Shown here: one piece after another, positions 431 through 20,864 of the stretch
Layout of the letters: the number at the start of each line of letters is the position of its first letter
Position numbering within the stretch: position 1 is the stretch's first letter
Sequence record: NC_105514.1
Source of the DNA: Escherichia phage JLBYU40
Direction: 5' to 3' (one strand)
DNA length: 64,000 nucleotides
Program-made: the position numbers and the translations under genes
Notes under the pieces: generated by a model
What the model was told of the DNA's origin: nothing
Seen by the model: the letters and a program-made list of their open reading frames with translations, nothing else
The model's database searches: none

Positions 431-459
431 TTATAAAATATATTATACAGATAATAAAG
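431..459 (-). promoter_or_regulatory. sigma70-type promoter (minus strand: -35 TTGCTA, 17 bp, -10 TATAAT)
   Basis: Plus strand shows attata (431-436) and tagcaa (454-459) 17 bp apart inside the conserved AT-rich cassette. Confidence 0.6.
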
Positions 460-620
460 CAGAATAGCAAATGAATTTTTAATAAATTTACTTATTGTGT
501 AGGCCACCTGGAGGCTACCAACCCCACGGCTGACAAAGAAGTTTGCGAGACCTCTCTTAAATGCCAGAATAGACCCGCCGGTCTATCGGAACCTACATAA
601 TAAGTAAACTTTATAGTGTC

Positions 621-740
621 ATTCTAGACAGGACTCGAACCTGTTATCACTTGTGCGGACTTACGAGAACCATTCTTTCACTCGAATCGAACGAGCTTCT
701 GCCCCCGCCAAGCTGGTTTCCCCATCAACCACGCTAGAAT
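621..740 (-). ncRNA. unresolved tRNA-like element (about 120 nt)
   Basis: Perfect 7-bp acceptor pairing ATTCTAG/CTAGAAT, D-like stem TGGT/ACCA, T-arm ACAGG-TTCGAGT-CCTGT, but about 45 extra nt in the middle and no canonical anticodon arm. Confidence 0.3.
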
Positions 741-862
741 GTTTGATTGTTTTCAGTGCAAGAGTCCGAGTCTTGGACACGACCGCTTCGCAAGTACATA
801 GGCGGCTTATCATGAGTCAGCACTTCCGAATTGCTAGCTTCGTGTTCTGCACTGAAATTTTG

Positions 863-1210
863 TTAATTTAATAGTAAAGTACGATCTACTTCACCATTAA
901 TTGTTCGGCATTCTTCTGGGATTGCTGGTGTAGTCTTATATTCCCACCATTCAGAACCATCATATTCACCACGTTCTAACCAAGTTCCATCGGTAAACCA
1001 TACGTTACCATAAAGCAATTGTCCGCCGAAACCAGAATCATATTTAAAGTCTAGATTATCTAGAAAATCTTCAATATCTTTTTCTGTATAACCTACGGGT
1101 AATACCCAAACTTCTTTATCCCCATAATAACCGAATTCTATCTTAATACACTTAACTTCAGAATTAGTATTCTTTAGGGCAAGTAACAATTCTTCTTTAG
1201 CATTAATCAT
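863..1210 (-). CDS. hypothetical protein (115 aa)
   Basis: ORF track; colinear with minus-strand early genes. Confidence 0.5.
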   Translation of the reverse strand: MINAKEELLLALKNTNSEVKCIKIEFGYYGDKEVWVLPVGYTEKDIEDFLDNLDFKYDSGFGGQLLYGNVWFTDGTWLERGEYDGSEWWEYKTTPAIPEECRTINGEVDRTLLLN

Positions 1211-1236
1211 AGCGTATTTCTCGTGCTAGTTTAGTT

Positions 1237-1313
1237 TGGCGCGACCGATGGGATTCGAACCCACATTCTCTCCCGTGACAGGGGAGTACCATTACCAAGC
1301 CAGCCCCGGTCGC
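1237..1313 (-). tRNA. tRNA-Asp (GUC)
   Basis: Acceptor GCGACCG/CGGTCGC, anticodon arm CTCCC-CTGTCAC-GGGAG, T-arm GTGGG-TTCGAAT-CCCAT, CCA encoded. Confidence 0.7.
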
Positions 1314-1322
1314 ATAATTCAT

Positions 1323-1508
1323 TTACTCAGCTTTGAGTTTTTCAATAGCTGCATTAAGTTCCTTAAGAAACTCTTTTCGTACATTAAGACGATTAAGACT
1401 TACTAGTATATCATGTTTAAGTTCTTCGATGTATTTCTTCTCAACTTCAATATTGTTGATAGTGCTATCACGATGAACTTCTAGCTGTGCAATTACGTTC
1501 TTGGACAT
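1323..1508 (-). CDS. hypothetical protein (61 aa)
   Basis: ORF track; helical, charged sequence. Confidence 0.4.
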   Translation of the reverse strand: MSKNVIAQLEVHRDSTINNIEVEKKYIEELKHDILVSLNRLNVRKEFLKELNAAIEKLKAE

Positions 1509-1610
1509 GCTTGTTTCCTCAGTTATTAATGAAAATGGTATCTGTGGCTGAATTCGATGTCAGCAATGATAGCTGGTTGGCTACCGGTTTACTTAACTCT
1601 ACACAGAATT

Positions 1611-1688
1611 TGGCGGTTCCTGCTGGATTCGAACCAGCAACCCTCAACTTAACAAGATGCCGCTCTAACCAATTAGAGCTAAGGAACC
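1611..1688 (-). tRNA. tRNA-Asn (GUU)
   Basis: Acceptor GGTTCCT/AGGAACC, D-stem GCTC/GAGC, anticodon loop TTGTTAA, T-arm GCTGG-TTCGAAT-CCAGC, CCA encoded; anticodon stem has two mismatches. Confidence 0.55.
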
Positions 1689-2183
1689 ATATAAGTCAGA
1701 ACTAGAGTTAATACGTTCTAGATATTTACTAAGATCTCTAGAATTTATACTAAACCACTCATGTTCTTTTAAATCTTTGAAATACTGGTGAATTAGTTTT
1801 TCACCTTTTCGTTTGTCAAACCAAAAAGACCAATGCTCTAACTTATAATCCCTATAAGGGGAATAAGTCTGATATTGAGCTAATCTCTCTTTTGGATTTT
1901 GACTCATACCTATTTTATACTGATTTTTCCATGCAGGATTACTAATACAGTATACAAAACCTTCAGAAATAGGAAGTTTATTTTCCTGCTTAAACTTTAT
2001 AAAGGAAAGTGCAGCAAGTTTTCTCGAATACATAGTATTTGTATTCTTTTTGGTATTACCATTGGTTCCTGAAAGATTTATATATTCTTCCATAAATCTT
2101 TGGATTAGTTCTGCGGTTATATAGAAGGGCTCATTAGTAACAATACCTTTCTTTACCAAACTATCAAAAACTCTTGTATGCAC
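1665..2183 (-). CDS. T5orf172-domain (GIY-YIG-like) protein
   Basis: 172-aa ORF; motif YKIGMSQNPKERLAQYQTYSPY resembles the T5orf172 / MUG113 domain; 3' end overlaps the tRNA-Asn gene. Confidence 0.5.
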   Translation of the reverse strand: MHTRVFDSLVKKGIVTNEPFYITAELIQRFMEEYINLSGTNGNTKKNTNTMYSRKLAALSFIKFKQENKLPISEGFVYCISNPAWKNQYKIGMSQNPKERLAQYQTYSPYRDYKLEHWSFWFDKRKGEKLIHQYFKDLKEHEWFSINSRDLSKYLERINSSSDLYGSLALIG

Positions 2184-2204
2184 TACTTCTTTCCTTTAGT
2201 AATT

Positions 2205-2280
2205 TGGACGACCGCATGAGATTTGAACTCACATAAAAAGGATTTGCAATCCTTCGCCTAAGCCATTCAGCCAACGGTCG
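2205..2280 (-). tRNA. tRNA-Cys (GCA)
   Basis: Acceptor CGACCGT/GCGGTCG, anticodon arm AAGGA-TTGCAAA-TCCTT, T-loop TTCAAAT, CCA encoded. Confidence 0.65.
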
Positions 2281-2328
2281 GTTTATCTTGTTCTGTCATG
2301 TTGCTTCTCCAGTTCAATTTATGTAATT

Positions 2329-2357
2329 ATTATACAGAACTTTTGGAAACTAAGCAA
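2329..2357 (-). promoter_or_regulatory. sigma70-type promoter (-35 TTGCTT, 17 bp, -10 TATAAT)
   Basis: Plus-strand attata 2329-2334 and aagcaa 2352-2357; conserved cassette. Confidence 0.6.
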
Positions 2358-2627
2358 CTACATTTTTAAGAATTTGATGCCTTTCTTTTTCTTCTTATAT
2401 TTCCACGTTAATGGATTCTGCCGATTGTGAACGCTTGAGATCTTCGTCTCGTCAAAGTTCTTCAATATCATGTAATCACAAGATAATTGTTCTAATGGAA
2501 TGTGATCACCGTCAAAAGCATATACATAAGGCTGTTGACTAACACGATAATGATAGACTTTGTTAATTCTACGTTTTAGCGACTTATCAGCGCAGTAAAT
2601 AAAGAAGTTTTCAGGATGCATCAGCAT
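2358..2627 (-). CDS. hypothetical protein (89 aa)
   Basis: ORF track. Confidence 0.4.
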   Translation of the reverse strand: MLMHPENFFIYCADKSLKRRINKVYHYRVSQQPYVYAFDGDHIPLEQLSCDYMILKNFDETKISSVHNRQNPLTWKYKKKKKGIKFLKM

Positions 2628-2641
2628 CTCCTTCGATTTGG

Positions 2642-2713
2642 TGCACCCTGTTCGTATCGAACGAACCTCTCAAGCTCTTCAGGCAAGCGCTAATCCATCT
2701 CAGCTAAAGGTGC
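2642..2713 (-). tRNA. probable tRNA-Phe (GAA)
   Basis: Acceptor GCACCTT/AGGGTGC, D-stem GCTG/TAGC, anticodon loop CTGAAGA, T-arm GTTCG-TTCGATA-CGAAC; anticodon stem weak (two U.U). Confidence 0.4.
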
Positions 2714-2719
2714 AAATTT

Positions 2720-2796
2720 TGGCAAACCTACTAGGACTCGAACCTAGACCGTACGGTTTTGGAGACCGACATGCTGTCCAGTAACACTCTAGGAAT
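2720..2796 (-). tRNA. possible tRNA-Trp (CCA)
   Basis: T-arm CTAGG-TTCGAGT-CCTAG with encoded CCA, anticodon loop CTCCAAA; acceptor pairing imperfect, 5' boundary uncertain. Confidence 0.35.
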
Positions 2797-2804
2797 GCAG
2801 AAAT

Positions 2805-2881
2805 TGGCGTCCTGTGCGGGGATCGAACCCGCAAATCCTACCTTGAAAGGGTAGTGACTTTACCAGTTTGTCTAACAGGAC
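2805..2881 (-). tRNA. tRNA-Glu (UUC)
   Basis: Acceptor GTCCTGT/ACAGGAC, anticodon arm CTACC-CTTTCAA-GGTAG, T-arm GCGGG-TTCGATC-CCCGC, CCA encoded. Confidence 0.7.
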
Positions 2882-2888
2882 TTAAATT

Positions 2889-2979
2889 TGGTGTTGGATG
2901 ATGGAGTCGAACCACCCGAGACCCTTCCGAGTCGGCAGATTTACAGTCTGCTTCGCTACCTCTACGATACTAATCCAAC
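2889..2979 (-). tRNA. tRNA-Tyr (GUA), long variable arm
   Basis: Acceptor GTTGGAT/ATCCAAC, anticodon arm GCAGA-CTGTAAA-TCTGC, about 18-nt variable arm, T-loop TTCGACT, CCA encoded. Confidence 0.65.
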
Positions 2980-3042
2980 ATATTTAAAAGTATTCAAATA
3001 CTAGTTTAAACACTTTTAAATATGTTTCCGAATTAGATAACT

Positions 3043-3071
3043 ATTATATCAAGTTTTAAGGCACTGAGCAA
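3043..3071 (-). promoter_or_regulatory. sigma70-type promoter driving the tRNA operon (-35 TTGCTC, -10 TATAAT)
   Basis: Plus-strand attata 3043-3048 and gagcaa 3066-3071, 17-bp spacer. Confidence 0.5.
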
Positions 3072-3107
3072 GTCAAATTTTAAAGAACTTGCTCAGTGCT
3101 GTATTAG

Positions 3108-3383
3108 TTAGTCGAACTTAGGAGTGACAGTTAAGGAGAACGGAAGTTCGAAAACTTCTTCGCCCTCATTACTAACGGTAACTACACGACCTTTAAGTTC
3201 AGACATTAAAATATCAATATCAGCTTTTGCATCTGGAGCCATGCCAGCTTCAATACATTTAGCTTTAACTTCCGGTAAAAGCTCTACGTTATAGAGATAG
3301 AGCCACTCAATCTCACCTTCCCAGTCTTCCCAGGATTTGCAGATTGCACTTTCAATACCAGTTGCTACAACACGATTTTGCAT
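3108..3383 (-). CDS. hypothetical protein (91 aa)
   Basis: ORF track. Confidence 0.45.
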   Translation of the reverse strand: MQNRVVATGIESAICKSWEDWEGEIEWLYLYNVELLPEVKAKCIEAGMAPDAKADIDILMSELKGRVVTVSNEGEEVFELPFSLTVTPKFD

Positions 3384-3413
3384 TAATTAACTCCTTCATC
3401 AATTTATATAACT

Positions 3414-3443
3414 ATTATACCAGAAATTTAAAGTAAAAGGCAA
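3414..3443 (-). promoter_or_regulatory. sigma70-type promoter (-35 TTGCCT, -10 TATAAT)
   Basis: Plus-strand attata 3414-3419 and aggcaa 3438-3443, 18-bp spacer. Confidence 0.45.
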
Positions 3444-3473
3444 GTACATTTTTAAAAATTCTGTTTGGAGGAG

Positions 3474-3680
3474 CTAAACTCCAGATTTTTCGGCCAAGTC
3501 TAGACTAATAAGAGTTATAGCCATAATTGCTGCACCGTGTTCTTTTTCTCCGGTGTTTTTAGCAGAGTCTATAATATCCTTAATCTGTTCGTAATAACTT
3601 TTTACTTCTTGTTCAATGCCTGCCTCGGCTATCATGCCTTTAGCCATGAATCGTTGCATGGTAATTTCAGGATTAGCCAT
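3474..3680 (-). CDS. hypothetical protein (68 aa)
   Basis: ORF track; start overlaps stop of upstream small ORF (ATGGCTAA). Confidence 0.4.
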   Translation of the reverse strand: MANPEITMQRFMAKGMIAEAGIEQEVKSYYEQIKDIIDSAKNTGEKEHGAAIMAITLISLDLAEKSGV

Positions 3681-3840
3681 GTTGTTTCTCCAGTTTCATT
3701 TTTAATAGTTTACAGATGAAATCAACGTCTTCATCTGTGCCTAAGTCTCTATCCTCAAGGGTCGCCTTGAAGTTTTTCGTCAATTCCATGAGGATGACTT
3801 CCCTAGAACGACGTGTTGGCGGAGGTGGATGTCTATACAT
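3673..3840 (-). CDS. hypothetical small protein (about 55 aa)
   Basis: Hand-read ORF (MYRHPPPPTRRS...) with SD AAGGAAA upstream of ATG at 3840; stop overlaps next start. Confidence 0.35.
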   Translation of the reverse strand: MYRHPPPPTRRSREVILMELTKNFKATLEDRDLGTDEDVDFICKLLKMKLEKQHG

Positions 3841-3855
3841 CTTATTTCCTTAATT

Positions 3856-3932
3856 TGGTAGGGGTGGTGGGATTCGAACCCACAAAACCTGAATTTTAAG
3901 TCCAGTACCTATGCCAATTCGATTACACCCCC
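3856..3932 (-). tRNA. tRNA with UAA anticodon but short variable arm (identity uncertain)
   Basis: Acceptor GGGGGTG/CACCCCT, anticodon arm CTGGA-CTTAAAA-TTCAG, T-arm GTGGG-TTCGAAT-CCCAC, CCA encoded; D-arm poorly paired. Confidence 0.45.
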
Positions 3933-3939
3933 GTGTAAT

Positions 3940-4128
3940 TTAGTCAATTACTTTTGAAGCTTCAAGGTAGTCGATATAGTGTACGTTTTCTACCGTAATC
4001 ATATAATCTGCCACTTTATCCATAGCTTGGGCTTCAGAGGTAGCTCTGGCTAACCTATATCCTTTTTTATATTCATCAGAGTATTCTCTATCTTGAATAA
4101 ACACAACATAAACTACGTATAATTCCAC
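3940..4128 (-). CDS. hypothetical protein (about 62 aa; GTG start inferred)
   Basis: The 111-aa ORF in the track runs into tRNA genes; AGGGGG then GTG at about 4128 gives a tRNA-free CDS. Confidence 0.3.
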   Translation of the reverse strand: MELYVVYVVFIQDREYSDEYKKGYRLARATSEAQAMDKVADYMITVENVHYIDYLEASKVID

Positions 4129-4150
4129 TTGTAACCCCCTAATTAAGTTG

Positions 4151-4225
4151 GTGGCTCCCCGAGGATTCGAACCTACGTACCTTCCGGTTATGAGCCGGGT
4201 GCTCATACCATATGAGCTTGAGAAC
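4151..4225 (-). tRNA. tRNA with CAU anticodon (Met or Ile2)
   Basis: Acceptor GGTTCTC/GGGAGCC, D-stem GCTC/GAGC, anticodon arm CCCGG-CTCATAA-CCGGA, T-loop TTCGAAT; no encoded CCA. Confidence 0.5.
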
Positions 4226-4231
4226 CAAAAT

Positions 4232-4320
4232 CTGGCGGAAGAAGTGGGAATCGAACCCACAAGGCTATATTTCAAACCGACAGATTAGCAATCTGCTGCA
4301 ATACCGTTATGCTATTCTTC
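4232..4320 (-). tRNA. tRNA-Ser (GCU), long variable arm
   Basis: Acceptor GGAAGAA/TTCTTCC, anticodon arm GCAGA-TTGCTAA-TCTGT, long variable arm, T-arm GTGGG-TTCGATT-CCCAC, CCA encoded. Confidence 0.65.
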
Positions 4321-4342
4321 CGAATTTATAAGATATATTATA

Positions 4343-4864
4343 TTAGAAATTTAGCTTCATAGCAAGAAAATTTTTCAAGTTTTCGGTAGACATCTCATCT
4401 ACATCTACAGGAGAAACAAAGCCGTTTAATTTTCTAGCAAATTTTTCACCATCGGGATCATTGTCTCCAACAGCTACCAATTTAAAAGGTAGTAATTTCA
4501 GTTGCTTTAATAACGCTTTTCCTGGAGAAGAACCCAACATTGCTAGGGCTGGATAACCAGCGTTATGTAACGCAACTGCCTTAAATACAGATTCAGCAAT
4601 CAATACTACTTTTTCATCTCCATTGAGAGTTTCTAGTCCCCATACACACTGGGTAGTAGAATAAGTAAAGTATTTAGCTTCAAAGGGGCACTTACCATGA
4701 CCTTTTGGAGCAGAAGGATTATAAGTTTGATAGCCCCTCAACATCCCAGAGAAGTCATACAACGGGACTGTTAGCCATCCTTCTGGACTTAACCAGCAAT
4801 GATATTTATCTGTATCAAATCCCCTAGATAAGAGGTGCTGTGTTAGCTCATCAACATTCATATT
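4343..4864 (-). CDS. Toprim-like domain protein (hypothetical)
   Basis: Motifs IAESVFK and LVAVGDNDPDGEKFARKL resemble a Toprim acidic patch; start moved to MNVDEL. Confidence 0.4.
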   Translation of the reverse strand, partial: NMNVDELTQHLLSRGFDTDKYHCWLSPEGWLTVPLYDFSGMLRGYQTYNPSAPKGHGKCPFEAKYFTYSTTQCVWGLETLNGDEKVVLIAESVFKAVALHNAGYPALAMLGSSPGKALLKQLKLLPFKLVAVGDNDPDGEKFARKLNGFVSPVDVDEMSTENLKNFLAMKLNF

Positions 4865-4891
4865 TGGTTCCTCTCTCAAATTTATAGATAT

Positions 4892-4920
4892 ATTATACAG
4901 AGAATTTAGCATTCAAGCAA
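4892..4920 (-). promoter_or_regulatory. sigma70-type promoter (-35 TTGCTT, 17 bp, -10 TATAAT)
   Basis: Plus-strand attata 4892-4897, aagcaa 4915-4920. Confidence 0.6.
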
Positions 4921-5036
4921 TCAAATTTTTTAACTTTTTAGAGGAAAATCATAGGGCGCTTAAGGGTAACAGATAAGTGGTGAGGACCAAAATTTGTGAC
5001 CCCACTAAAAATCCGGGGGCAATTTTTAAAGACCCC

Positions 5037-5065
5037 TTGACATTTTCGCTGGGGTAGTGTAAAGT
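5037..5065 (+). promoter_or_regulatory. sigma70-type promoter (-35 TTGACA, about 17 bp, -10 TAAAGT)
   Basis: ttgaca at 5037-5042; TAAAGT/TATAT-like -10 about 17 bp downstream; followed by SD AGGAGG. Confidence 0.5.
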
Positions 5066-5127
5066 ATATGTTATGGATGAGTGATCAAAGAGACACACAT
5101 TTTCTATATACTAGGAGGTGTCAAAAA

Positions 5128-6114
5128 ATGACAGAAGAAGTAGCTAAGAGTCCTGAGACCGTCGCTAGCGTTGCAGCAGAACTGCACCGTCACGAGGAAT
5201 CAGATAAGAAAAAGTGGGAGAAGGTCAGAGCCTACGAAGAAAAACATCGTGAACACGATGATGAAGAAGATGACGATGATGAACATTGTCATAAATATGG
5301 AAAACATAAAATGCAAGAACCAGTAAACGTATTCACTAGTGGCTTCCCTGGCCTACTGGGTGGTTACCCAGCAAACGCAGGTGCTTTCGGTGGTGAAGGT
5401 ATGGGACTATTCGGAGCTATCCTAATCGGTGCTCTATTAACAGGTGGATTCGGTGGTTTCGGTGGATTCGGTGGACGTGGTGTAGTTGGTGAAGGTACCG
5501 CAGTTGATGCAGTACTTCAGAACCAAGATACCGCTAGTATTCTAGCAGCTATTAACACTACTCGTACAGAAGCTAATCAGGGTACTGGGGCTGTGTTAAG
5601 CGCAGTTAACAATGGTTTTAGCCAGACATCCCAAAACCAGAGCCGTGATACTCAGTCTGTACTAACTACGATTTATGGTACAGGTGCTAATCTGTCTAAT
5701 CAGATCTGCCAGGAAACTCGCAACGTTATTCAGGGTCAGTTCGATCTTTCTCGCCAGATTGATCAATCTTTCGCAGCTAACCAGATAGCTCGTGCACAAG
5801 ATAAATTTGATTCTGCACAGATCGCTTTCCAGCAGACTTTACAAACTAATAACCAGTTTGCCGCTGTTCAGGCTCAGATGTGTGCTAACCAGAACTCTCT
5901 GGAACGTCAGATCGCTGAATGTTGCTGTGAACTTCAGACTGCGATCGCTGGTGTAACTACTGCGCGTATCCAGGATGAGTTAGATGCATGTCGCCTACGT
6001 GAGGCAATCGCTGCGGGTAATGGTGCTAACGATCAGGTAATTAATCAAATCGCTGTAAGTCTTGGTGCAATCACTCAGACTCTGGCTGGTCTGCAGGCTA
6101 AACTGCCGGCTTAA
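5128..6114 (+). CDS. hypothetical protein: acidic/His-rich N-terminus, Gly-zipper hydrophobic segment, long Gln/Asn/Ala-rich helical region
   Basis: ATG 5128 after AGGAGG; GFGGFGGFGG and GAILIGALLTGG; codons biased to highly expressed E. coli-like usage. Confidence 0.6.
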   Translation: MTEEVAKSPETVASVAAELHRHEESDKKKWEKVRAYEEKHREHDDEEDDDDEHCHKYGKHKMQEPVNVFTSGFPGLLGGYPANAGAFGGEGMGLFGAILIGALLTGGFGGFGGFGGRGVVGEGTAVDAVLQNQDTASILAAINTTRTEANQGTGAVLSAVNNGFSQTSQNQSRDTQSVLTTIYGTGANLSNQICQETRNVIQGQFDLSRQIDQSFAANQIARAQDKFDSAQIAFQQTLQTNNQFAAVQAQMCANQNSLERQIAECCCELQTAIAGVTTARIQDELDACRLREAIAAGNGANDQVINQIAVSLGAITQTLAGLQAKLPA

Positions 6115-6135
6115 TATTAAGGGGAGGAGCCCATT

Positions 6136-6552: not shown

Positions 6553-6561
6553 GGAGGAATT

Positions 6562-6756: not shown

Positions 6757-6772
6757 GGAACCAAACAATAAA

Positions 6773-6806
6773 GCCCCTAGTCGAAAGACTTAGGGGCTTT
6801 TCTTTT
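6773..6806 (+). terminator. rho-independent terminator
   Basis: GCCCCTA/TAGGGGC stem followed by TTTTCTTTT. Confidence 0.6.
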
Positions 6807-6816
6807 ATCTTAAATA

Positions 6817-8508: not shown

Positions 8509-8730
8509 GTGTTACTACATAAGTGATTTCCACACCCCACTATTTATAAATTAGAGAAGAGTTTAGGGAAGAGGTTTCAGACGCCTCATTTTACACGTTC
8601 TAGCCACTAACCGGGATTGCCGCCCCCTGTGTACTAGTTTTACAACTAACCCACCGACTCTATTCAATGCACTCCGGTTGGGATTCTGCACTCAGCGTAA
8701 TCGGCTCGCTGTTCCCTAATTTATGAATAT

Positions 8731-8759
8731 ATTATACAGAATTTATAAGCATTTAGCAA
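8731..8759 (-). promoter_or_regulatory. sigma70-type promoter (-35 TTGCTA, 17 bp, -10 TATAAT)
   Basis: Plus-strand attata 8731-8736, tagcaa 8754-8759; points into the 800-nt non-coding stretch. Confidence 0.6.
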
Positions 8760-8767
8760 ATGAATTT

Positions 8768-9202
8768 TTAGAAAAATTCACTAGCGATCAAAGCAGTTGT
8801 TTTACCGTCATAACGTCCAGGAAATTCTGCCTTAATAGTTTTCATTAATAGAGCTTTGGTAATACCTGGGTTTAATTTAACCAGTTCTGCAAAATACTCA
8901 CGAATTTCAGTTTCAGTCAGTTGACTTGGCTGATACTCTTGCAGCATGGAATAAAGCAGTTGCTCATAGTCTACATCAGTAGGAACTTTCGTACCAACTT
9001 TAATAGCGCGCTGCTTTGCATTTTCTAGAGCCTTAATCTGAGCTTTCAGATAGGCTACAAACTCGGTTCGAGTAACAATGTCTTTATCAATACGTTGCAG
9101 GTCGCCAATCATGGTCTGAAGATTAAGTGCCCGCTCTTTATCACCGTGAGTACGTGCTAGACTAAGCAGTCCACGAAGGGTCATTAGGATATTTTCACCC
9201 AT
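8768..9202 (-). CDS. hypothetical protein (144 aa)
   Basis: ORF track; start overlaps stop of upstream small ORF. Confidence 0.5.
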   Translation of the reverse strand: MGENILMTLRGLLSLARTHGDKERALNLQTMIGDLQRIDKDIVTRTEFVAYLKAQIKALENAKQRAIKVGTKVPTDVDYEQLLYSMLQEYQPSQLTETEIREYFAELVKLNPGITKALLMKTIKAEFPGRYDGKTTALIASEFF

Positions 9203-9370: not shown

Positions 9371-9403
9371 ATATTTCGCTTCCTCTCATTAATTTATGAA
9401 AGT

Positions 9404-9432
9404 ATTATACAGAAATTTAAGTATTTAAGCAA
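9404..9432 (-). promoter_or_regulatory. sigma70-type promoter (-35 TTGCTT, 17 bp, -10 TATAAT)
   Basis: Plus-strand attata 9404-9409, aagcaa 9427-9432. Confidence 0.6.
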
Positions 9433-9440
9433 GTAAATTT

Positions 9441-9908
9441 TTAAGTTTTAGTGACAACAGGTTTATAAAACGTATGTCCCTTAATCTTAGTTGTTTTCTT
9501 AAACTTCTTTGTCCAGTAAGGTTTATCTTTACCACTATGGAAGTATAGTGCTCCATGTGTAGGATCTTGTGGTAAATCAACGTAGTATATCACTCTAGCT
9601 AAATTCTTAGCGGTTTGCCAAGCCTCATCAGTTTTATCAACTTTTGGTCTCTTAGATACCCAAGAGAACTGGTTAGACTGATATACTACTTTACAGTAGG
9701 AATCTGGGAATTTACCGGAGTTTACACGGTTTTTAGTAACATGTGCAATCGCCGTCATTCCCTTTATGCCCTCACCACGACTTTCGAAATAGATATTTTT
9801 AGCAATGCAATCTATTTCTTTTGCATCGTGCGATGCCTGACTACTAAAGCTGAAGGTAAGGGCAGCTACTAAAAGCAAAGCTGCCTTCATTCTTTTTACT
9901 ACTGCCAA
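9441..9908 (-). CDS. secreted cell-wall hydrolase, SleB-like (Hydrolase_2 family)
   Basis: N-terminal signal peptide (MKAALLLVAALTFSFSSQA); motifs resembling SleB-type cell wall hydrolases. Confidence 0.5.
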   Translation of the reverse strand: MAVVKRMKAALLLVAALTFSFSSQASHDAKEIDCIAKNIYFESRGEGIKGMTAIAHVTKNRVNSGKFPDSYCKVVYQSNQFSWVSKRPKVDKTDEAWQTAKNLARVIYYVDLPQDPTHGALYFHSGKDKPYWTKKFKKTTKIKGHTFYKPVVTKT

Positions 9909-10213: not shown

Positions 10214-10243
10214 AATAGCCTCGTTTCATCAATTTAAAAATAT

Positions 10244-10272
10244 ATTATACACATAATTTAGTAAATTAGCAA
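10244..10272 (-). promoter_or_regulatory. sigma70-type promoter (-35 TTGCTA, 17 bp, -10 TATAAT)
   Basis: Plus-strand attata 10244-10249, tagcaa 10267-10272. Confidence 0.6.
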
Positions 10273-10655
10273 ATACATTTTTAAATTGTGAAACTAGTAA
10301 ACCGATAAACAGCCTAGAGGCGCCACAGGCCATATCTTATGAGCCATGTACCTTTGATCTAGGGTTTGAATCATCAATGAATACTTTGCATCTTTTAGCT
10401 TTAGAAGTTTAGAAGTTTGAGTTCTTTAAACTTTTCAGCTTTCATACTTAAATGTTGATCTTTGAAGTTGTGTCGGTAATATCAACGACGCTTTGTTTTT
10501 ACGTGTCAGATTAAATGTCTGATGTAATAAACATAATCTCCAATAGATTATACTTTATAGTATGGTCAGCGGTCTTATTTAACCTCGTATTTCAACCGCT
10601 GCTGCGAGGTAAGATGCTTGGGCTTTCGTCTACCGATTTACTAGCTTTTAAATTA

Positions 10656-11464: not shown

Positions 11465-11570
11465 ACGACGGATACCCAGATTACGAGTAGCTTTCTTACC
11501 ATTTTTACGAACATTTTTAGATACTGGCGTATTTGTTTTCCTTTTATTGTTTTCTCAAATTTATGAATAT

Positions 11571-11599
11571 ATTATACAGAATTTTGGGGCCGGAAGCAA
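11571..11599 (-). promoter_or_regulatory. sigma70-type promoter (-35 TTGCTT, 17 bp, -10 TATAAT)
   Basis: Plus-strand attata 11571-11576, aagcaa 11594-11599; cassette nearly identical to 8719-8745. Confidence 0.6.
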
Positions 11600-11600
11600 A

Positions 11601-12302
11601 TCAAATTTTCATTTTTTCGATCATAGCTGCAACACAATAGCTTTCAACTAAGGCATCAAATGCAGGATCATGCTTAACCGGATAGATCCCATAACGAATA
11701 GTGTCCATCTTCTCCATTTTAGCTATTGCCCAGCTAATAGCTTCGGTCTCTAGAGCCTTATAACTGTATCCAGCTTGCATCCAGAGATTACGAAGAGATC
11801 GAACATTACCCAAATTCCAGAATTTCCACGGAACTACCTCTTCATTGGTTCCAGCATGGAACGTGTTTGCAGAGTAGATAGTCATATCAAATTCTGGGCC
11901 ATTGCCATAATACAAAGCATTTTCGCCTAGAGCCAACTCCATAATATTTTGAGCCATAGAGAAGGCAGCATAGTTAGAGCCGAGCTTATTAGTACAGTGA
12001 TGTTTACCATTTTGGAAGGCAATCAGTTTTGGATTACGTTCCTTCATAGCTTCCATTATGTGAATAGCAGAGGGGCTATTTTTAGCTTGATCCATCCAGA
12101 ATGCTAGAGTAGATGCTGTAACTTTGGCACCAGAATTAAGCTGATCCTGCACATCCAAAGTAACAAATACTAAGTCAGGGTCTTTGTCAATCCCATGCAT
12201 AGCCACAAAAGCGAAAGAAGGCATTGCGATATGAGTAGTACCACAATCTCCTGGAGTTCCTAGAGATTCAATATCTAGCATACCAAATGGTTTTACTTTC
12301 AT
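11601..12302 (-). CDS. putative exonuclease (DEDD-like motif)
   Basis: N-terminal LDIESLGT resembles Exo I motif of DnaQ-like 3'-5' exonucleases; otherwise unassigned. Confidence 0.4.
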   Translation of the reverse strand: MKVKPFGMLDIESLGTPGDCGTTHIAMPSFAFVAMHGIDKDPDLVFVTLDVQDQLNSGAKVTASTLAFWMDQAKNSPSAIHIMEAMKERNPKLIAFQNGKHHCTNKLGSNYAAFSMAQNIMELALGENALYYGNGPEFDMTIYSANTFHAGTNEEVVPWKFWNLGNVRSLRNLWMQAGYSYKALETEAISWAIAKMEKMDTIRYGIYPVKHDPAFDALVESYCVAAMIEKMKI

Positions 12303-13403: not shown

Positions 13404-13442
13404 TATTTATTTTCCTTTTTGTTTATCAATTTATGAAGTATA

Positions 13443-13470
13443 TTATACGAGAATTTGAAGCGTTTAGCAA
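13443..13470 (-). promoter_or_regulatory. sigma70-type promoter (-35 TTGCTA, 16 bp, -10 TATAAT)
   Basis: Plus-strand attata 13443-13448, tagcaa 13465-13470. Confidence 0.55.
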
Positions 13471-13486
13471 ATGAATTTTTTAAAAA

Positions 13487-13765: not shown

Positions 13766-13792
13766 AAAGCCCTCCTCACTTTCAATATGAAT

Positions 13793-13821
13793 ATTATACT
13801 AAATTAGAGGGCTTTAAGCAA
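13793..13821 (-). promoter_or_regulatory. sigma70-type promoter (-35 TTGCTT, -10 TATAAT)
   Basis: Plus-strand attata 13793-13798, aagcaa 13816-13821. Confidence 0.55.
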
Positions 13822-13841
13822 GAAGATTTTTAATTTATTTA

Positions 13842-14599: not shown

Positions 14600-14624
14600 T
14601 GTATACCTCCAATTTATAAAATAT

Positions 14625-14653
14625 ATTATATTTAAATTTCACTAAATAAGCAA
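14625..14653 (-). promoter_or_regulatory. sigma70-type promoter (-35 TTGCTT, 17 bp, -10 TATAAT)
   Basis: Plus-strand attata 14625-14630, aagcaa 14648-14653. Confidence 0.6.
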
Positions 14654-14659
14654 ATGAAA

Positions 14660-14686
14660 TTTAAATATAATAGCCCCGAAGGGCTA
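14660..14686 (-). terminator. hairpin terminator downstream of thyA
   Basis: TAGCCC-CGAA-GGGCTA stem-loop with flanking U-rich tract on minus strand. Confidence 0.45.
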
Positions 14687-17207: not shown

Positions 17208-17238
17208 TGATTTTCCTCTTTCTCACTATTTCAGGAAT

Positions 17239-17268
17239 ATTATAGCAAATCTGGTAGCGATTAGCAAG
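17239..17268 (-). promoter_or_regulatory. sigma70-type promoter upstream of nrdB
   Basis: Plus-strand attata about 17239-17244 and tagcaa 17263-17268, 18-bp spacer. Confidence 0.5.
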
Positions 17269-17276
17269 TAAAATTT

Positions 17277-17306
17277 CAAAGAAAAAGGAGACCCGAAGAT
17301 CTCCTT
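17277..17306 (-). terminator. hairpin terminator after nrdA
   Basis: AGGAGA...TCTCCT stem with U-rich flanks. Confidence 0.45.
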
Positions 17307-17313
17307 ATTTTTA

Positions 17314-19644
17314 TTAAATAGTACAACCGCCTGATGCACAACCGGCTGCTTCTTCTCCTGCACCACCACCATTAGCGGTGTTGAAGTTTGCGTAGTAGAA
17401 AGTCTTCCACCCATACTTAACAGCAGTCATGAAATCACGAACTACTACTGGACCAGGAATGATTTCATTCTCAAACTTGGTGTAGTCATAGTACATATTC
17501 GTACTGATAGACTGACTGAAGAATTTCTGCATAGTTGCTACCCATTTGATCCACTCGATACGATCTACATCATAAGCCAGTTTATAGCTCATTAACGTTT
17601 CCCAATCGGTTGCACCCGGAGCAATTGCAATTACTTTATTCACTGCACTACCCTTGATAGATACAATCTTACGAGGCGGTTCAATAGAGTTAGTAACACC
17701 TAACAGAACAGAAGAACTTTCTCCCGGCATCTGAGCAGTCAGAACAGAGTTACGCATACCATATTTCAGAATATCTGCACGTAGAGACTCCCAATCCATT
17801 TCTAGACCTACGGATACCAGTTCATCAACAGTTTTCTTGTACGTGTCGATTACCAGAATTCCTTTAGATGGTTTAGTACGATCAAACCACTCACATGCAC
17901 CCTGTTCTTTAGCTAGGCGTACAGAGGCTTTATGTAGGAAGTAGGACAGTTTTTCAGCCTCACGGTGAATCCAGTTACGGGCTTCAATACCTTCGTAAGC
18001 CAGACCTTCTGCTGCCATTGCACCTGCTGCGTTCATTAGGCCAATACCAACATTACGACGTTTCTTAGCCGTATATTCCATAGTTGGGAACGGATAATCC
18101 TGAATTTCGATAATTGTATCAACGAATTTCAGAAGGATGTAGCAAGTTTTTTCCCACTCAGCTAGAGATTCCATGCGTCCAAGTACAACACCACCTAAGT
18201 TACACAGAGATACTTCACCAATATCCTCCGGCTTCATTTGATCAAGCTGCTCTTTTGTCTTATACAGCTCTGTAATGTGATGGAATGGGCGTGTAGGCTG
18301 AGTAATCTCAACACAAAGGTTTGTCATACGGATCGGATCAAGGAAATTACCGTGACGATTAGATTCCCCGATGTGATGAGCATACATACGTCCTGTTTCC
18401 ATTCGGATACGTAGCCAAGTATCTAGGATTTCTTTTGCAGAGACTTTAGGAGCTGCAGGAACTGTTTTTCCTTCGTGGTCGATCTTTGTAAGAGATGCCA
18501 CACGTTTCTCCGCTGCCACGTAGATTTCTTCAAATTTAGCCTCGTCATCACTATAAAACGCTTCATGAACTTCTGGAGCATAGAAGTATGACATTAGCGT
18601 AATATCTTCATTTTTCAGATAACGTTTTAACAAAAGATTGTTGAAGCTCAGAGAATAATCCATCTTATCGATTTTATTCTCATCTGTAGCACGTTGTTGC
18701 TTAACCTGCATTAATTGAATGATTTCAGGGTCGAAGTATGGATAAGACACTGTAGCAGAACCACCACGAGTTTGCTGAGTATTGGCCTTTACTGAGCGGT
18801 CAATGTGTCGATAATATGGCAGTTTTCCGGAATGCGGGAATGCCCCATTTCGCACCGGATCAGCAATTGATCGGCTTTCAAGATGATACCCGATTCCCGC
18901 TCTGGCTGCGACCATTTTGAAGACGATGTGCTCGGCGGTGTCGATTGAATCCAACGTGTCAGTGGAATCCACGAGGCAGCAACTAGCAAATCCACGGTCA
19001 CTAGAGCGCAGACCAACCAGTGGCGGCGTAGGAACGTTGATTTTGTGGAGCGACATTGCGTTGTAGAGGTCGATTGCATCTAGAATTGTCCAGTTAGGTT
19101 GAGATAACATCGCCATTGCCATACCCATGTAGGCAAACTGCGGGGTTTCGTAAATTTCACCAGTGGCTATGTTACGACGGGAATACTTATCAAAGAACTG
19201 CTTCAGCCCACCACTAGTAAAAAGACGGTCACGATCATGGTCGATAACCTGATTCAGAGCTTCAAATTGCTCATCGGTAATCCATGCACTCATGTCTTCC
19301 CATGCACCTACGCTAACCATGTGGTCATGGAAGAAGCGTAGAGAAGGTGGTTCGAAAGAGTCATAAAGGCGTTTACGCATTTGCGCAAGACGTAATTCCT
19401 TTGCTGGCACATCGTATGCTGGGTTATCTTTGATAAGACTTTCAGCAGCTTTAATTAATGCGTCCATCAGAGTGTCGGAATCTACAACCCCTTTAGGTAG
19501 AGTTTTTTGAGCAGCCATAGTAATGGCTGACCAGCTTACATCAACTGTTTTGCAACCATACTCTGCCCAACCATTGAGTTTTTCAGGAGCAAAGTCTTCT
19601 ACAGTACCGTCACGTTTAATTACTTTTTCAATGCGATGGCTCAT
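17314..19644 (-). CDS. nrdA: ribonucleotide reductase class Ia large subunit
   Basis: ATP-cone start MSHRIEKVIKRDGTVEDF after SD AAAGGAAAG; radical/cysteine motifs, C-terminal CxxC tail; the longer tracked ORF would include a promoter. Confidence 0.9.
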   Translation of the reverse strand: MSHRIEKVIKRDGTVEDFAPEKLNGWAEYGCKTVDVSWSAITMAAQKTLPKGVVDSDTLMDALIKAAESLIKDNPAYDVPAKELRLAQMRKRLYDSFEPPSLRFFHDHMVSVGAWEDMSAWITDEQFEALNQVIDHDRDRLFTSGGLKQFFDKYSRRNIATGEIYETPQFAYMGMAMAMLSQPNWTILDAIDLYNAMSLHKINVPTPPLVGLRSSDRGFASCCLVDSTDTLDSIDTAEHIVFKMVAARAGIGYHLESRSIADPVRNGAFPHSGKLPYYRHIDRSVKANTQQTRGGSATVSYPYFDPEIIQLMQVKQQRATDENKIDKMDYSLSFNNLLLKRYLKNEDITLMSYFYAPEVHEAFYSDDEAKFEEIYVAAEKRVASLTKIDHEGKTVPAAPKVSAKEILDTWLRIRMETGRMYAHHIGESNRHGNFLDPIRMTNLCVEITQPTRPFHHITELYKTKEQLDQMKPEDIGEVSLCNLGGVVLGRMESLAEWEKTCYILLKFVDTIIEIQDYPFPTMEYTAKKRRNVGIGLMNAAGAMAAEGLAYEGIEARNWIHREAEKLSYFLHKASVRLAKEQGACEWFDRTKPSKGILVIDTYKKTVDELVSVGLEMDWESLRADILKYGMRNSVLTAQMPGESSSVLLGVTNSIEPPRKIVSIKGSAVNKVIAIAPGATDWETLMSYKLAYDVDRIEWIKWVATMQKFFSQSISTNMYYDYTKFENEIIPGPVVVRDFMTAVKYGWKTFYYANFNTANGGGAGEEAAGCASGGCTI

Positions 19645-19682
19645 TTGGCTTTCCTTTTTATAGTTATCAGGATTTAAGGAAT

Positions 19683-19711
19683 ATTCTACTTTATTATCGG
19701 TCATTAGGCAA
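19683..19711 (-). promoter_or_regulatory. sigma70-type promoter upstream of nrdA (-35 TTGCCT, 17 bp, -10 TAGAAT)
   Basis: Plus-strand attcta 19683-19688 and aggcaa 19706-19711. Confidence 0.45.
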
Positions 19712-19786
19712 ATAAAATTTTCTGATAGAAAAGGCCCGAGTATTTTCATACCCAGGCCCTGTATATTACCAGTCTAGCTTTTTAGC

Positions 19787-20008
19787 TTATTCAATTACTT
19801 TAGCTCTAGCTACTTCTTTTAATAGAATATCTATGGAGGTGCTCAGCTCGTTATAATTGAATGGTTTATTTGGATTTGAGGTTACAATTTTCCACGCTAG
19901 GGTTGTCTTAGGACTTTCTTCCCCTTCCTTACGTGTAATCATATTAGCAGCACTCAGTGAAGTACGATGTATTTTAGTTTTACGGCTCAGATGAACGACG
20001 TTTCCCAT
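19787..20008 (-). CDS. hypothetical protein (about 73 aa)
   Basis: Start moved to MGNVVHL after SD GGAAGGTG. Confidence 0.4.
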   Translation of the reverse strand: MGNVVHLSRKTKIHRTSLSAANMITRKEGEESPKTTLAWKIVTSNPNKPFNYNELSTSIDILLKEVARAKVIE

Positions 20009-20009
20009 A

Positions 20010-20771
20010 TTACACCTTCCCCATGTCTTTAAAAATATCATAGAATGCTTTAGACTCAACAGAACGAACGTTATCAATCAATTCGATCATTGAGAAGGGG
20101 GCATTTTCGTATTTCTCATAGACTTCCATAAGGAGTGCTAGACCTGAGTCGCCTTTAATGTCTTTCTGGGCTATATCTCCGCAGATAATTAAACGGCAGT
20201 CTTGTCCTACACGAGTTAGGAGACAAATCATTGCCTCAACGGAAATATTCTGAGCTTCATCGACAATTACATAGGAGTTGTTGAAAGTTCTGCCACGAGC
20301 ATGTTCGATAGCCAAAAATTTAATTTTCTGACGTTCGACATACCCTTTATATGCATGATCGCCAATGGCCCATTTCATACCATCAGCTATTGGCTCCAAC
20401 CAAGGCTCTAGCTTTTCCGCTAGATCACCAGGAAGCATACCAAGAGACTTACCTAGAGGTTCATTAGGACGTACGAGAATCACTTGCTCAATATCTGAGT
20501 GAATGTCTACTAGTTCCTGAGCTGCAAGAACGGACGGAATAAAGGTTTTACCAGTACCTGGCTCACCGATACCCACAGTCACTGTGTTGTTCTTGATCAT
20601 ATTGATATATGATTTTTGCTCGCGGTTTTTACCTACTAGGGATTTAGCAACTGGGTTAGCGTAATCATTAGAAAAATCAGCCTGAATTACGTTATTCTCA
20701 TATTTGTTGCCACGCTTTCTTGAACCATTGCGGTTCTCTCTTTTTTGACGTGCTTTTCCCATAAATAACAC
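20010..20771 (-). CDS. phoH: PhoH-like ATPase
   Basis: Walker A GIGEPGTGKTF and Walker B ...SYVIVDEAQN. Confidence 0.8.
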   Translation of the reverse strand: MLFMGKARQKRENRNGSRKRGNKYENNVIQADFSNDYANPVAKSLVGKNREQKSYINMIKNNTVTVGIGEPGTGKTFIPSVLAAQELVDIHSDIEQVILVRPNEPLGKSLGMLPGDLAEKLEPWLEPIADGMKWAIGDHAYKGYVERQKIKFLAIEHARGRTFNNSYVIVDEAQNISVEAMICLLTRVGQDCRLIICGDIAQKDIKGDSGLALLMEVYEKYENAPFSMIELIDNVRSVESKAFYDIFKDMGKV

Positions 20772-20835
20772 TCCTATAGTGTACTTCGCTAACAGAGGAT
20801 CAACAAAAAGATCTTGTTTATCAACTTACAAATAT

Positions 20836-20864
20836 ATTATACCAATATATACAGTAAAAAGCAA
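20836..20864 (-). promoter_or_regulatory. sigma70-type promoter (-35 TTGCTT, 17 bp, -10 TATAAT)
   Basis: Plus-strand attata 20836-20841, aagcaa 20859-20864. Confidence 0.55.

What the first reader, a model, noticed from the sequence alone, without database searches (positions are those of the whole stretch)
431..20864. Highly conserved promoter cassette repeated at least 15 times on the minus strand
A roughly 55-bp cassette recurs upstream of almost every small minus-strand unit at 431, 2329, 3043, 3414, 4892, 8731, 9404, 10244, 11571, 13443, 13793, 14625, 17239, 19683 and 20836. On the coding strand it reads AT-rich UP-like tract, TTGCTa/t, 17 bp, TATAAT, then a conserved AATT..CATAAATT leader. 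Copies at 8719-8745 and 11559-11585 share an identical 27-mer. This fits the known strong early promoters of T5-type phages, and the near-identity also makes them candidate recombination or module-shuffling sites.
Basis: partly seen in the sequence, partly recalled or inferred. Interest (0 to 1): 0.4.

Follow-up and report, generated by a model that had tools for sequence, protein, structure and literature searches.

The report
Known T5-type early promoters, repeated
The repeated ~60-bp cassette is real, but it is the well-known strong early promoter of phage T5 and its relatives, already annotated site by site in public T5 records, so the finding is ordinary.

Summary
TTGCT-N18-TATAAT occurs 19 times in the window against 0.08 expected. 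With close variants there are about 26 cassettes, and each points the same way as the gene it precedes. The window is a Tequintavirus (T5-like) genome, about 97% identical to sequenced relatives. Plus-strand copies include P-N25, P-N26, P-K28a and P31A/B. Published work covers the consensus, the UP-like tract, the ATATT discriminator and the N25 initial transcribed sequence.

Corrections:
- Sites 3414 and 19683 are variants.
- The shared 27-mer lies one base off the stated coordinates.
- "Near-identity" is overstated. Copies within the genome are about 60% identical, while the same promoter in different phages is about 95% identical.

The recombination idea is weakly supported. Breakpoints hit 13 of 17 cassette junctions and 21 of 36 other gene junctions (p = 0.24). 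Natural deletions end in tRNA genes, tRNA-like genes or ORFs. Only two duplicated cassette halves appear among 2144 pairs. Verdict: already known, low interest.

The parts
424..485 (-). Early promoter cassette (-50..+12), ortholog of T5 P13a. Drives a small ORF (251-409), then tRNA-Pro and tRNA-Met.
2311..2372 (-). Early promoter cassette, ortholog of T5 P14b. Drives tRNA-Cys and downstream genes.
3025..3086 (-). Early promoter cassette, ortholog of T5 P14a. Drives the tRNA-Tyr/Glu/Trp/Phe cluster.
3396..3458 (-). Variant cassette (TTGCCT, 18-bp spacer), ortholog of T5 P15c.
4319..4380 (-). tRNA-Ser starts about +10 from the predicted start site.
4874..4935 (-). Early promoter cassette, ortholog of T5 P15a. 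The T5 promoter was detected by primer extension in Klimuk 2020. Drives the TOPRIM ORF 4343-4861.
8713..8774 (-). Early promoter cassette, ortholog of T5 P16-17. Drives the stable RNAX and tRNA-Arg. Shares a 27-mer with the 11571 copy.
9386..9447 (-). Early promoter cassette, ortholog of T5 P-D/E33.
10226..10287 (-). Early promoter cassette, ortholog of an unnamed T5 promoter feature.
11553..11614 (-). Early promoter cassette, ortholog of an unnamed T5 promoter feature.
13424..13485 (-). Early promoter cassette, ortholog of T5 P-H207.
13775..13836 (-). Early promoter cassette upstream of RNase H, ortholog of an unnamed T5 promoter feature.
14607..14668 (-). Early promoter cassette, with a hairpin (AATAGCCCttcgGGGCTATT) directly upstream. 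Ortholog of an unnamed T5 promoter feature.
17221..17282 (-). Early promoter cassette upstream of nrdB, with a terminator hairpin at 17285-17306 directly upstream.
19665..19726 (-). Weaker variant (TTGCCT-17-TAGAAT, no ATAAATT leader), preceded by a GAAA-loop hairpin plus T-run. Lies 33 nt upstream of the likely true nrdA start (ATG at 19644). T5 has no promoter feature here.
20818..20879 (-). Early promoter cassette upstream of phoH, ortholog of an unnamed T5 promoter feature.
20959..21020 (-). TTGCCA-17-TATAAT promoter without the early discriminator or leader. Annotated as a promoter in T5.
23017..23078 (+). Plus-strand early promoter cassette, with a terminator at 22997-23021 directly upstream.
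30707..30768 (+). Ortholog of T5 P-N25. The core and start-site region match the published N25 sequence: TATAATAGATTCAT is -12..+2.
31735..31796 (+). Ortholog of T5 P-N26.
32951..33012 (+). Early promoter cassette upstream of ligA, with a terminator at 32921-32949 directly upstream.
34398..34459 (+). Ortholog of T5 P-K28a.
38411..38472 (+). Cassette with an 18-bp spacer upstream of the DNA polymerase gene, ortholog of an unnamed T5 promoter feature.
42891..42952 (+). Ortholog of T5 P31A (TTGGCA -35).
42992..43053 (+). Ortholog of T5 P31B (18-bp spacer).

Best explanation
The cassettes are sigma-70-dependent early promoters of a T5-like phage (Tequintavirus), read by unmodified host RNA polymerase.

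Anatomy:
- An A-rich UP-like block at about -47..-37, inferred to contact the alpha C-terminal domains.
- A -35 hexamer TTGCT(T/A).
- A 17-bp A/T-rich spacer.
- A perfect -10 hexamer extended to TATAATA.
- An A/T-rich discriminator A-T-A/T-T-T/C.
- A start at the A of cATAAATT, followed by a conserved initial transcribed sequence ATAAATTGA.

Where the target is an ORF, a Shine-Dalgarno sequence follows at about +12..+18 and the start codon at +20..+28. Each cassette starts a short early transcription unit: tRNAs and stable RNAs, nucleotide-metabolism genes or replication genes. The units run leftward from 21 kb and rightward from 23 kb.

Shown here: sequence anatomy, enrichment, orientation, orthology to annotated T5 promoters, purifying selection on exactly these positions, and conservation across genera. 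Taken from the literature on T5 orthologs: promoter activity, the +1 position, the role of the initial transcribed sequence in promoter escape, and the weakening of polymerase contact with -5/+2 by gpT5.026. Inferred, as Klimuk et al. propose: the shared ATATT discriminator marks the early class for the early-to-late switch.
For: - Enrichment: 19 exact matches against 0.08 expected.
- Register and flanks: about 26 cassettes in register with conserved flanks.
- Orientation: all 17 minus-strand copies lie before minus-strand genes in 1-21 kb, and all plus-strand copies lie before plus-strand genes in 23-43 kb.
AKFV33 annotates them and cites the consensus TTGCTT(N17-18)TATAATA from Wang et al. 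2005.
- Literature: Klimuk 2020 (PMC7472727) gives TATAATAGATTCAT as -12..+2 of N25, reports primer-extension products for 11 of 19 tested T5 promoters (P15A among them), and states that all known early promoters carry ATATT in the discriminator. PMC12464699 describes N25's UP element, TTGctt/17/TATAAT core and control of escape by the initial transcribed sequence.
- Phylogenetic footprint over 133 ortholog pairs: almost no substitutions at -45..-42, -35..-31, -12..-4 and +1..+6, and up to 18% in the spacer.
- Breadth: the extended cassette is present in Epseptimavirus, Sugarlandvirus (Klebsiella host) and Novosibvirus (Proteus host).
- Transcriptional role of the leader motif: it is kept at promoters that drive tRNAs and RNAX (4337, 8731), so it is not only a translation signal.
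Against: No transcript 5' ends were mapped for this particular phage, and activity and timing are extrapolated from T5. Site 19683 has a weaker -10 and no T5 promoter annotation. Site 20977 lacks the early discriminator and leader. The generic TTGACA/TATAAT scan is not enriched in the region (37 found against 49.6 expected), so the case rests on the specific T5 consensus and orthology rather than on generic promoter scoring.
Confidence: 0.95

Rival explanations
1. Besides acting as promoters, the cassettes are PeSL-like recombination joints. Exchange between cassettes, within a genome or between co-infecting relatives, would shuffle gene modules, as reported for promoter/stem-loop cassettes of T4-like phages.
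For: Many mosaic breakpoints against 9 relatives fall at cassette edges, typically at +10..+28, between the conserved leader and the ATG. In Stitch, the promoter-leader half (-12..+26) of the cassette driving ORF77 matches the P15a ortholog driving NadR/PnuC at 36 of 38 positions. The two flank an inserted NadR-PnuC-terminator module, and the genes differ immediately after the ATG. The next-best pair in Stitch scores 30 and the mean is 19. The same P15a leader precedes a TOPRIM gene in the window. PeSL precedent.
Against: Cassette junctions are hit 13/17 and non-cassette junctions 21/36, Fisher p = 0.24. Paralogs are only 60% identical with a median longest shared word of 9 nt. Orthologs are 95% identical against 60% for paralogs, so there is no homogenisation. 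The large natural deletions in R2, DT571/2, K20 and SP3 end in tRNA genes, tRNA-like genes or ORFs, and the annotated T5 st0 deletion repeat lies in coding sequence. Only 2 of 2144 within-genome cassette pairs have a near-duplicate half. Only about 5 of 26 cassettes have an upstream stem-loop. Several insertions next to cassettes are homing-endonuclease genes, a known separate cause of mosaicism.
Confidence: 0.15
2. The conserved part downstream of the -10 box (ATATTcATAAATTGA) is mainly an mRNA 5'-leader element for translation or stability, not part of the promoter.
For: It is transcribed from +1 and lies just upstream of the Shine-Dalgarno sequence in most units. A/U-rich leaders are generally thought to aid ribosome loading (general knowledge, not tested here).
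Against: The discriminator half (-6..-1) is not transcribed. The ATAAATT motif is kept at promoters that drive tRNA-Ser (mature 5' end about +10) and RNAX, where no translation occurs. Published work shows that the N25 +3..+20 sequence controls promoter escape and that gpT5.026 acts on the -5/+2 contact.
Confidence: 0.1
3. The copies are a dispersed mobile repeat (MITE- or REP-like), or a chance or compositional artefact of an A/T-rich genome.
For: There are many short dispersed copies in intergenic DNA.
Against: None of 100 dinucleotide-preserving shuffles approaches the observed count. The copies keep orthologous positions across genera. Orientation always follows the downstream gene. Similarity is confined to functional promoter positions while the spacers diverge. 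No terminal inverted repeats or target duplications were seen.
Confidence: 0.01

Closest known systems
Bacteriophage T5 early promoters (P-N25, P-N26, P-K28, P-H207, P-D/E33, P13-P16 series; consensus TTGCTT-N17/18-TATAATA with ATATT discriminator)
   Same: The consensus, spacing, UP-like A-tract, discriminator, start site and initial transcribed sequence are the same. The positions are orthologous to promoter features in T5 NC_005859 and AY734508, and the core of the 30722 site matches P-N25.
   Different: The window is a relative of T5, with flanks 81-99.7% identical, not T5 itself. T5 P-K28b and one unnamed T5 promoter feature (T5 58999-59073) have no listed counterpart among the window sites tested. 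P11 and P13b appear to lie upstream of where the window begins. Site 19683 has no T5 promoter annotation.
PeSL (promoter-early stem-loop) cassettes of T4-like phages (Arbiol et al. 2010; Comeau et al. 2014)
   Same: Both are repeated strong sigma-70-type early promoters with an A/T-rich upstream region, a Shine-Dalgarno sequence and a start codon, placed between small early genes in a plastic genome region. Some breakpoints lie between the -10 box and the ATG, and one inserted module in Stitch is flanked by a duplicated promoter-leader.
   Different: Most T5-type cassettes lack the upstream stem-loop. There is no significant excess of breakpoints over other junctions. The copies are only about 60% alike. 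Mini-circles have not been tested.
Canonical E. coli sigma-70 promoters with UP elements (e.g. rrnB P1, lambda PR)
   Same: The -10 hexamer is TATAAT, the spacer is 17 bp, there is an A-tract upstream of the -35, and host holoenzyme is used.
   Different: The -35 hexamer is TTGCTT/A, matching only 3-4 of 6 positions of TTGACA. There is also a class-specific A/T-rich discriminator and a conserved initial transcribed sequence. A generic TTGACA-based scan misses the TTGCTT copies.

Membership tests
T5-type sigma-70 early promoters | -35 TTGCT(T/A), 17-18 bp spacer, -10 TATAAT(A) | tested here: met
   19 exact TTGCT-N18-TATAAT matches against 0.08 expected, plus variants with TTGCCT, TTGGCA or an 18-bp spacer. 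A at -6 in 19 of 19.
T5-type sigma-70 early promoters | A/T-rich UP-like block upstream of the -35 | tested here: met
   -47..-37 reads TTAAAAaTTtA. A at -42 and T at -40 are invariant in 19 of 19.
T5-type sigma-70 early promoters | ATATT-type discriminator, the class mark of early promoters (Klimuk 2020) | tested here: met
   -6 A 19/19, -5 T 14/19, -4 A 11 or T 8, -3 T 15/19, -1 T 13 or C 6. Absent at 20977 and at the TTGACA-type promoters 5037 and 21057. Class definition.
T5-type sigma-70 early promoters | Orthology to mapped or annotated T5 promoters | tested here: met
19683 does not.
T5-type sigma-70 early promoters | Co-orientation with, and placement just upstream of, early genes or tRNAs | tested here: met
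   All copies are co-directional with the downstream unit. Leaders are 19-27 nt to the start codon, or about 9 nt to tRNA-Ser.
T5-type sigma-70 early promoters | Primary transcript 5' ends at +1 and early timing in infection | not testable with these tools
   Only literature on T5 orthologs is available: N25 +1, P15A and Ppol by primer extension. No genome-wide TSS map of T5 was found in the library.
PeSL-type recombinogenic regulatory cassettes | Stem-loop terminator directly upstream of the promoter in most copies | tested here: not met
   Hairpins lie directly upstream of only about 5 of 26 cassettes (14625, 17239, 19683, 23032, 32966).
PeSL-type recombinogenic regulatory cassettes | Preferential association with insertions, deletions and replacements between relatives | tested here: inconclusive
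   13 of 17 cassette junctions hit against 21 of 36 other junctions, odds ratio 2.3, Fisher p = 0.24, from 9 relatives.
PeSL-type recombinogenic regulatory cassettes | Chimeric or duplicated cassettes flanking exchanged modules | tested here: inconclusive
   One clear case (Stitch, 36/38) and one weaker case (T5 P-N25 against P15a, 33/38) among 2144 within-genome pairs.
PeSL-type recombinogenic regulatory cassettes | Mini-circle formation between neighbouring cassettes during infection | not testable with these tools
   Needs inverse PCR on infected cells (describes the assay).

The most novel reading that the evidence does not exclude
In Demerecviridae the early promoter-leader cassette occasionally serves as the joint at which whole gene modules are swapped or inserted. 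This would be a PeSL-like mechanism without the stem-loop. The evidence is the duplicated P15a promoter-leader flanking the NadR/PnuC module in Stitch, and three unrelated genes (TOPRIM, NadR, ORF77) fused to the same leader exactly at the ATG.
Probability: 0.15. Interest if true: 0.4.

Novelty: already known. Interest (0 to 1): 0.1.

Why it matters
As a discovery it matters little. These promoters have been studied for decades, P-N25 is a standard model promoter for escape studies and, from my own knowledge, underlies common expression vectors, and public records already annotate the sites. The useful results are corrections and context. The discriminator and leader are under purifying selection and are conserved across four genera on different hosts, which fits the published idea that they mark the early class for the early-to-late switch. 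Generic TTGACA-based promoter scans miss the TTGCTT copies. The recombination idea has little support in these data.

Tried and rejected
- Generic sigma-70 scan: not enriched and misses the TTGCTT sites, so it is uninformative for this class.
- Rfam scan of 1-36000: only tRNAs, no RNA family at the cassettes.
- Breakpoint enrichment at cassettes: a raw excess disappears once ordinary gene junctions are used as the control (p = 0.24).
- Concerted evolution among cassettes: rejected, orthologs 95% against paralogs 60%.
- Chimeric origin of Stitch cassette B's upstream half: its best match, 30/43, is not an outlier, so only the downstream half is a demonstrable duplicate.
- Search for near-duplicate cassette halves in 12 loci: only two cases.
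- Original Bujard-group paper (Kammerer et al. 1986): not held in the library. What I say about that early work comes from later papers that cite it, or is marked as my own knowledge.
- Genome-wide TSS mapping of T5: none found.
- Mobile-repeat and chance explanations: rejected on shuffles, orthology and orientation.
Full report
**Observation.** The pattern TTGCT-N18-TATAAT (TTGCTN, a 17-bp spacer, TATAAT) occurs 19 times in the 64-kb window against 0.08 expected from dinucleotide-preserving shuffles, and none of 100 shuffles came close. 14 copies are on the minus strand between 442 and 20864. Five are on the plus strand at 23032, 30722, 31750, 32966 and 34413. Allowing TTGNNN, 16-18 bp spacers and TA-N-AAT, and reading the flanks, gives about 26 cassettes in the same register.

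Site 3414 is TTGCCT with an 18-bp spacer. Site 19683 is TTGCCT-17-TAGAAT and lacks the leader motif.

The shared 27-mer is real (AAATTCTGTATAATATATTCATAAATT) but sits at 8718-8744 and 11558-11584, one base off. "Near-identity" is overstated. Over -50..+12 the copies are on average 60% identical (45-76%), and the median longest shared word between two cassettes is 9 nt.

**Anatomy.** I anchored on the -10 box and took +1 as the A of cATAAATT. Klimuk et al. 2020 give TATAATAGATTCAT as -12..+2 of N25. The information profile of the 19 exact copies shows:
- an A-rich block at -47..-37 (TTAAAAaTTtA, with A-42 and T-40 invariant);
- TTGCT at -35..-31;
- an A/T-rich spacer, often with G at -13;
- TATAATA at -12..-6;
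- a discriminator T-A/T-T-T-T/C at -5..-1;
- TAAATT at +2..+7, then a purine-rich stretch carrying the Shine-Dalgarno sequence.

Leaders to the start codon are 19-27 nt. At 4337 the mature tRNA-Ser begins about +10. Every minus-strand copy precedes minus-strand genes (1-21 kb), and every plus-strand copy precedes plus-strand genes (23-43 kb).

**Identity of the genome and of the sites.** The window is a Tequintavirus-type phage, about 97% identical to sequenced Salmonella and Escherichia T5-like phages, with 554 matching records. Three public records already annotate these sites:
- Escherichia phage AKFV33 annotates the corresponding positions as promoters [quoted passage not shown].
- The T5 tRNA-region record AY734508 names P14b, P14a, P15c, P15a and P16-17.
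- The T5 RefSeq record annotates promoters throughout the region.

Local BLAST maps the window sites onto T5 promoter features as follows:

| Window site | T5 promoter feature |
|---|---|
| 442 | P13a |
| 2329 | P14b |
| 3043 | P14a |
| 3414 | P15c |
| 4337 | P15b |
| 4892 | P15a |
| 8731 | P16-17 |
| 9404 | P-D/E33 |
| 13442 | P-H207 |
| 30722 | P-N25 |
| 31750 | P-N26 |
| 34413 | P-K28a |
| 42906, 43006 | P31A, P31B |

Sites 10244, 11571, 13793, 14625, 17239, 20836, 20977, 23032, 32966 and 38425 map to unnamed promoter features. Only 19683 has no T5 promoter feature. It falls in the annotated 5' end of T5 nrdA. That 811-aa annotation is probably too long. The 776-aa form starts MSHRIEKVIKRDG, which resembles (from memory) the N-terminus of cellular NrdA, and phiLLS, Stitch and DT571/2 annotate the short form. 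The 19683 site and an upstream GAAA-loop hairpin with a T-run lie just before it.

**Function.** The literature on the T5 orthologs supplies the experimental basis.
- Klimuk et al. 2020 detected primer-extension products for 11 of 19 previously mapped T5 promoters, including early P15A and Ppol.
- They state that all known early promoters carry ATATT in the discriminator.
- They show that the phage protein gpT5.026 weakens polymerase binding to the -5/+2 segment and shifts the early/late balance.
- Work on N25 describes its UP element, its TTGctt/17/TATAAT core, very tight polymerase binding, and rate-limiting escape controlled by the initial transcribed sequence.

Two analyses here support constraint on the same positions. 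First, a footprint over 133 orthologous cassette pairs in nine relatives shows almost no substitutions at -45..-42, -35..-31, -12..-4 and +1..+6. The spacer and position -2 reach 10-18%. The local alignments are truncated at their ends, so only the pattern inside the core is informative. Second, the full extended cassette, including the discriminator and ATAAATTGA leader, recurs in Epseptimavirus (Stitch), Sugarlandvirus (Klebsiella host) and Novosibvirus (Proteus host, where the -35 is more often TTGCAA or TTGACA).

The leader motif is retained at promoters that drive tRNAs and the stable RNAX. Its conservation is therefore transcriptional and not only translational.

**The recombination suggestion.** I aligned window 1-24500 to nine relatives: T5, phiLLS, MM-1, Kenya-K20, SP3, Stitch, DT571/2, R2 and AKFV33. 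This gave 78 distinct breakpoint clusters for indels or replacements of at least 40 bp. Many lie at cassette edges, typically between +10 and the ATG. But cassettes sit in gene junctions, where viable breakpoints are expected anyway. At junction level, 13 of 17 cassette junctions and 21 of 36 cassette-free junctions are hit (odds ratio 2.3, Fisher p = 0.24).

Other evidence also argues against frequent exchange:
- Orthologous cassettes are 95% identical against 60% for paralogs, so the copies are not being homogenised.
- The large natural deletions end in tRNA genes, tRNA-like genes or ORFs: R2 643 to 7869, DT571/2 1643 to 2980, K20 2645 to 2979, SP3 1564 to 3214. The R2 deletion appears to join tRNA-like T-arm sequences.
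- The annotated T5 st0 deletion repeat lies in coding sequence.
- Several insertions next to cassettes are homing-endonuclease genes, a recognised separate source of mosaicism in this group.
- Only about 5 of 26 cassettes have a hairpin directly upstream, unlike PeSLs.

One clear case points the other way. In Stitch the TOPRIM gene between P15b and P15a is replaced by a NadR-PnuC-terminator module plus a small ORF. The cassette in front of that ORF matches the P15a ortholog at 36 of 38 positions from -12 to +26, while the coding sequences differ immediately after the ATG. Among the 190 Stitch pairs the next-best score is 30 and the mean is 19. Across 12 loci and 2144 within-genome pairs, only this pair and T5 P-N25/P15a (33/38) stand out. 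Cassette-associated exchange therefore seems possible but rare, and these data do not show that cassettes are preferred sites.

**Comparison and verdict.** The feature is a member of the T5 early promoter class. Every sequence-level defining feature was tested and met, and only in vivo 5' ends and timing could not be tested. It resembles T4-type PeSLs in being a repeated early promoter in a plastic region. It fails the stem-loop criterion, and the association test is inconclusive. The finding is already known and is annotated in public records, so interest is low.

Noticed in passing
window 19645-19749 (-), with T5 NC_005859 nrdA (T5.096): The 811-aa nrdA reading frame, as annotated in T5, AKFV33 and MM-1, probably starts 35 codons too early. 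The extension covers a GAAA-loop terminator hairpin and the 19683 promoter. The 776-aa form begins MSHRIEKVIKRDG, which resembles (from memory) the N-terminus of cellular NrdA, and it is the form annotated in phiLLS, Stitch and DT571/2.
   Followed up: partly
L008 (Salmonella phage Stitch) 5950-8160; window 4343-4920: In Stitch the TOPRIM ORF between P15b and P15a is replaced by a NadR-like adenylyltransferase, a PnuC-like transporter, a terminator and a small ORF. The insertion is flanked by two promoter-leader copies that match at 36 of 38 positions. The T5 homolog of this TOPRIM ORF is described in PMC10644984 as Rad, an inhibitor of retron defence.
   Followed up: partly
window 12584-12599 and 12861-12880: ORF 12609-12824 is absent from T5, DT571/2, SP3, R2 and K20. 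In the window it is flanked by two similar G+C-rich terminator-like hairpins (GGGGGCGAAGGCCCCT and GTAGGGGCTTCTGCCCCTAT). The alignments overlap by 15-22 bp at the joint, which suggests exchange between hairpins rather than between promoters.
   Followed up: partly
window 643 and 7869 (relative R2, L010); 1643 to 2980 (DT571/2); 2645 to 2979 (K20): Large natural deletions of the tRNA region in relatives have endpoints inside tRNA or tRNA-like genes. The R2 joint shows a 17-bp overlap that appears to lie in T-arm-like sequence. tRNA genes, not promoters, seem to be the usual deletion joints.
   Followed up: partly
window 4152-4226 (-) and 8436-8507 (-): Rfam finds two tRNA-like matches that ARAGORN did not report. 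4152-4226 lies where T5 annotates tRNA-Ile2(CAU). 8436-8507 (35.5 bits) lies inside the region that T5 annotates as the 719-nt stable RNAX of unknown function.
   Followed up: no
window about 490-860 (-): This stretch downstream of the promoter region at 863+ and upstream of P13a corresponds to the T5 stable RNAs RNAIV and RNA2 (tRNA-like, function unknown). Neither Rfam nor ARAGORN matches it, and relatives carry insertions here at 612-618.
   Followed up: no
window 20818-21085: Three promoters lie between phoH and nrdD: the early cassette at 20836(-), a TTGCCA-17-TATAAT at 20977(-) without the early discriminator, and a perfect-consensus TTGACA-17-TATAAT at 21057(+) for nrdD. This junction is also where relatives carry different endonuclease genes or an extra ORF.
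   Followed up: partly
window 17208-17237, 18311-18315 and 18769-18773: The window lacks the HNH endonuclease gene that T5 and five other relatives carry between the 17239 promoter and nrdB. It also lacks the roughly 0.9-1.0 kb insertions that SP3 and R2 carry inside nrdA (intein or intron-like).
   Followed up: no
window 5037-5065 (+) and 6822-6853: A short plus-strand unit of three ORFs sits inside the minus-strand region. It starts at the T5 P12 ortholog (TTGACA-17-TAAAGT, not the early cassette) and ends at a strong bidirectional terminator. T5 annotates a major single-strand nick just beyond that terminator.
   Followed up: no
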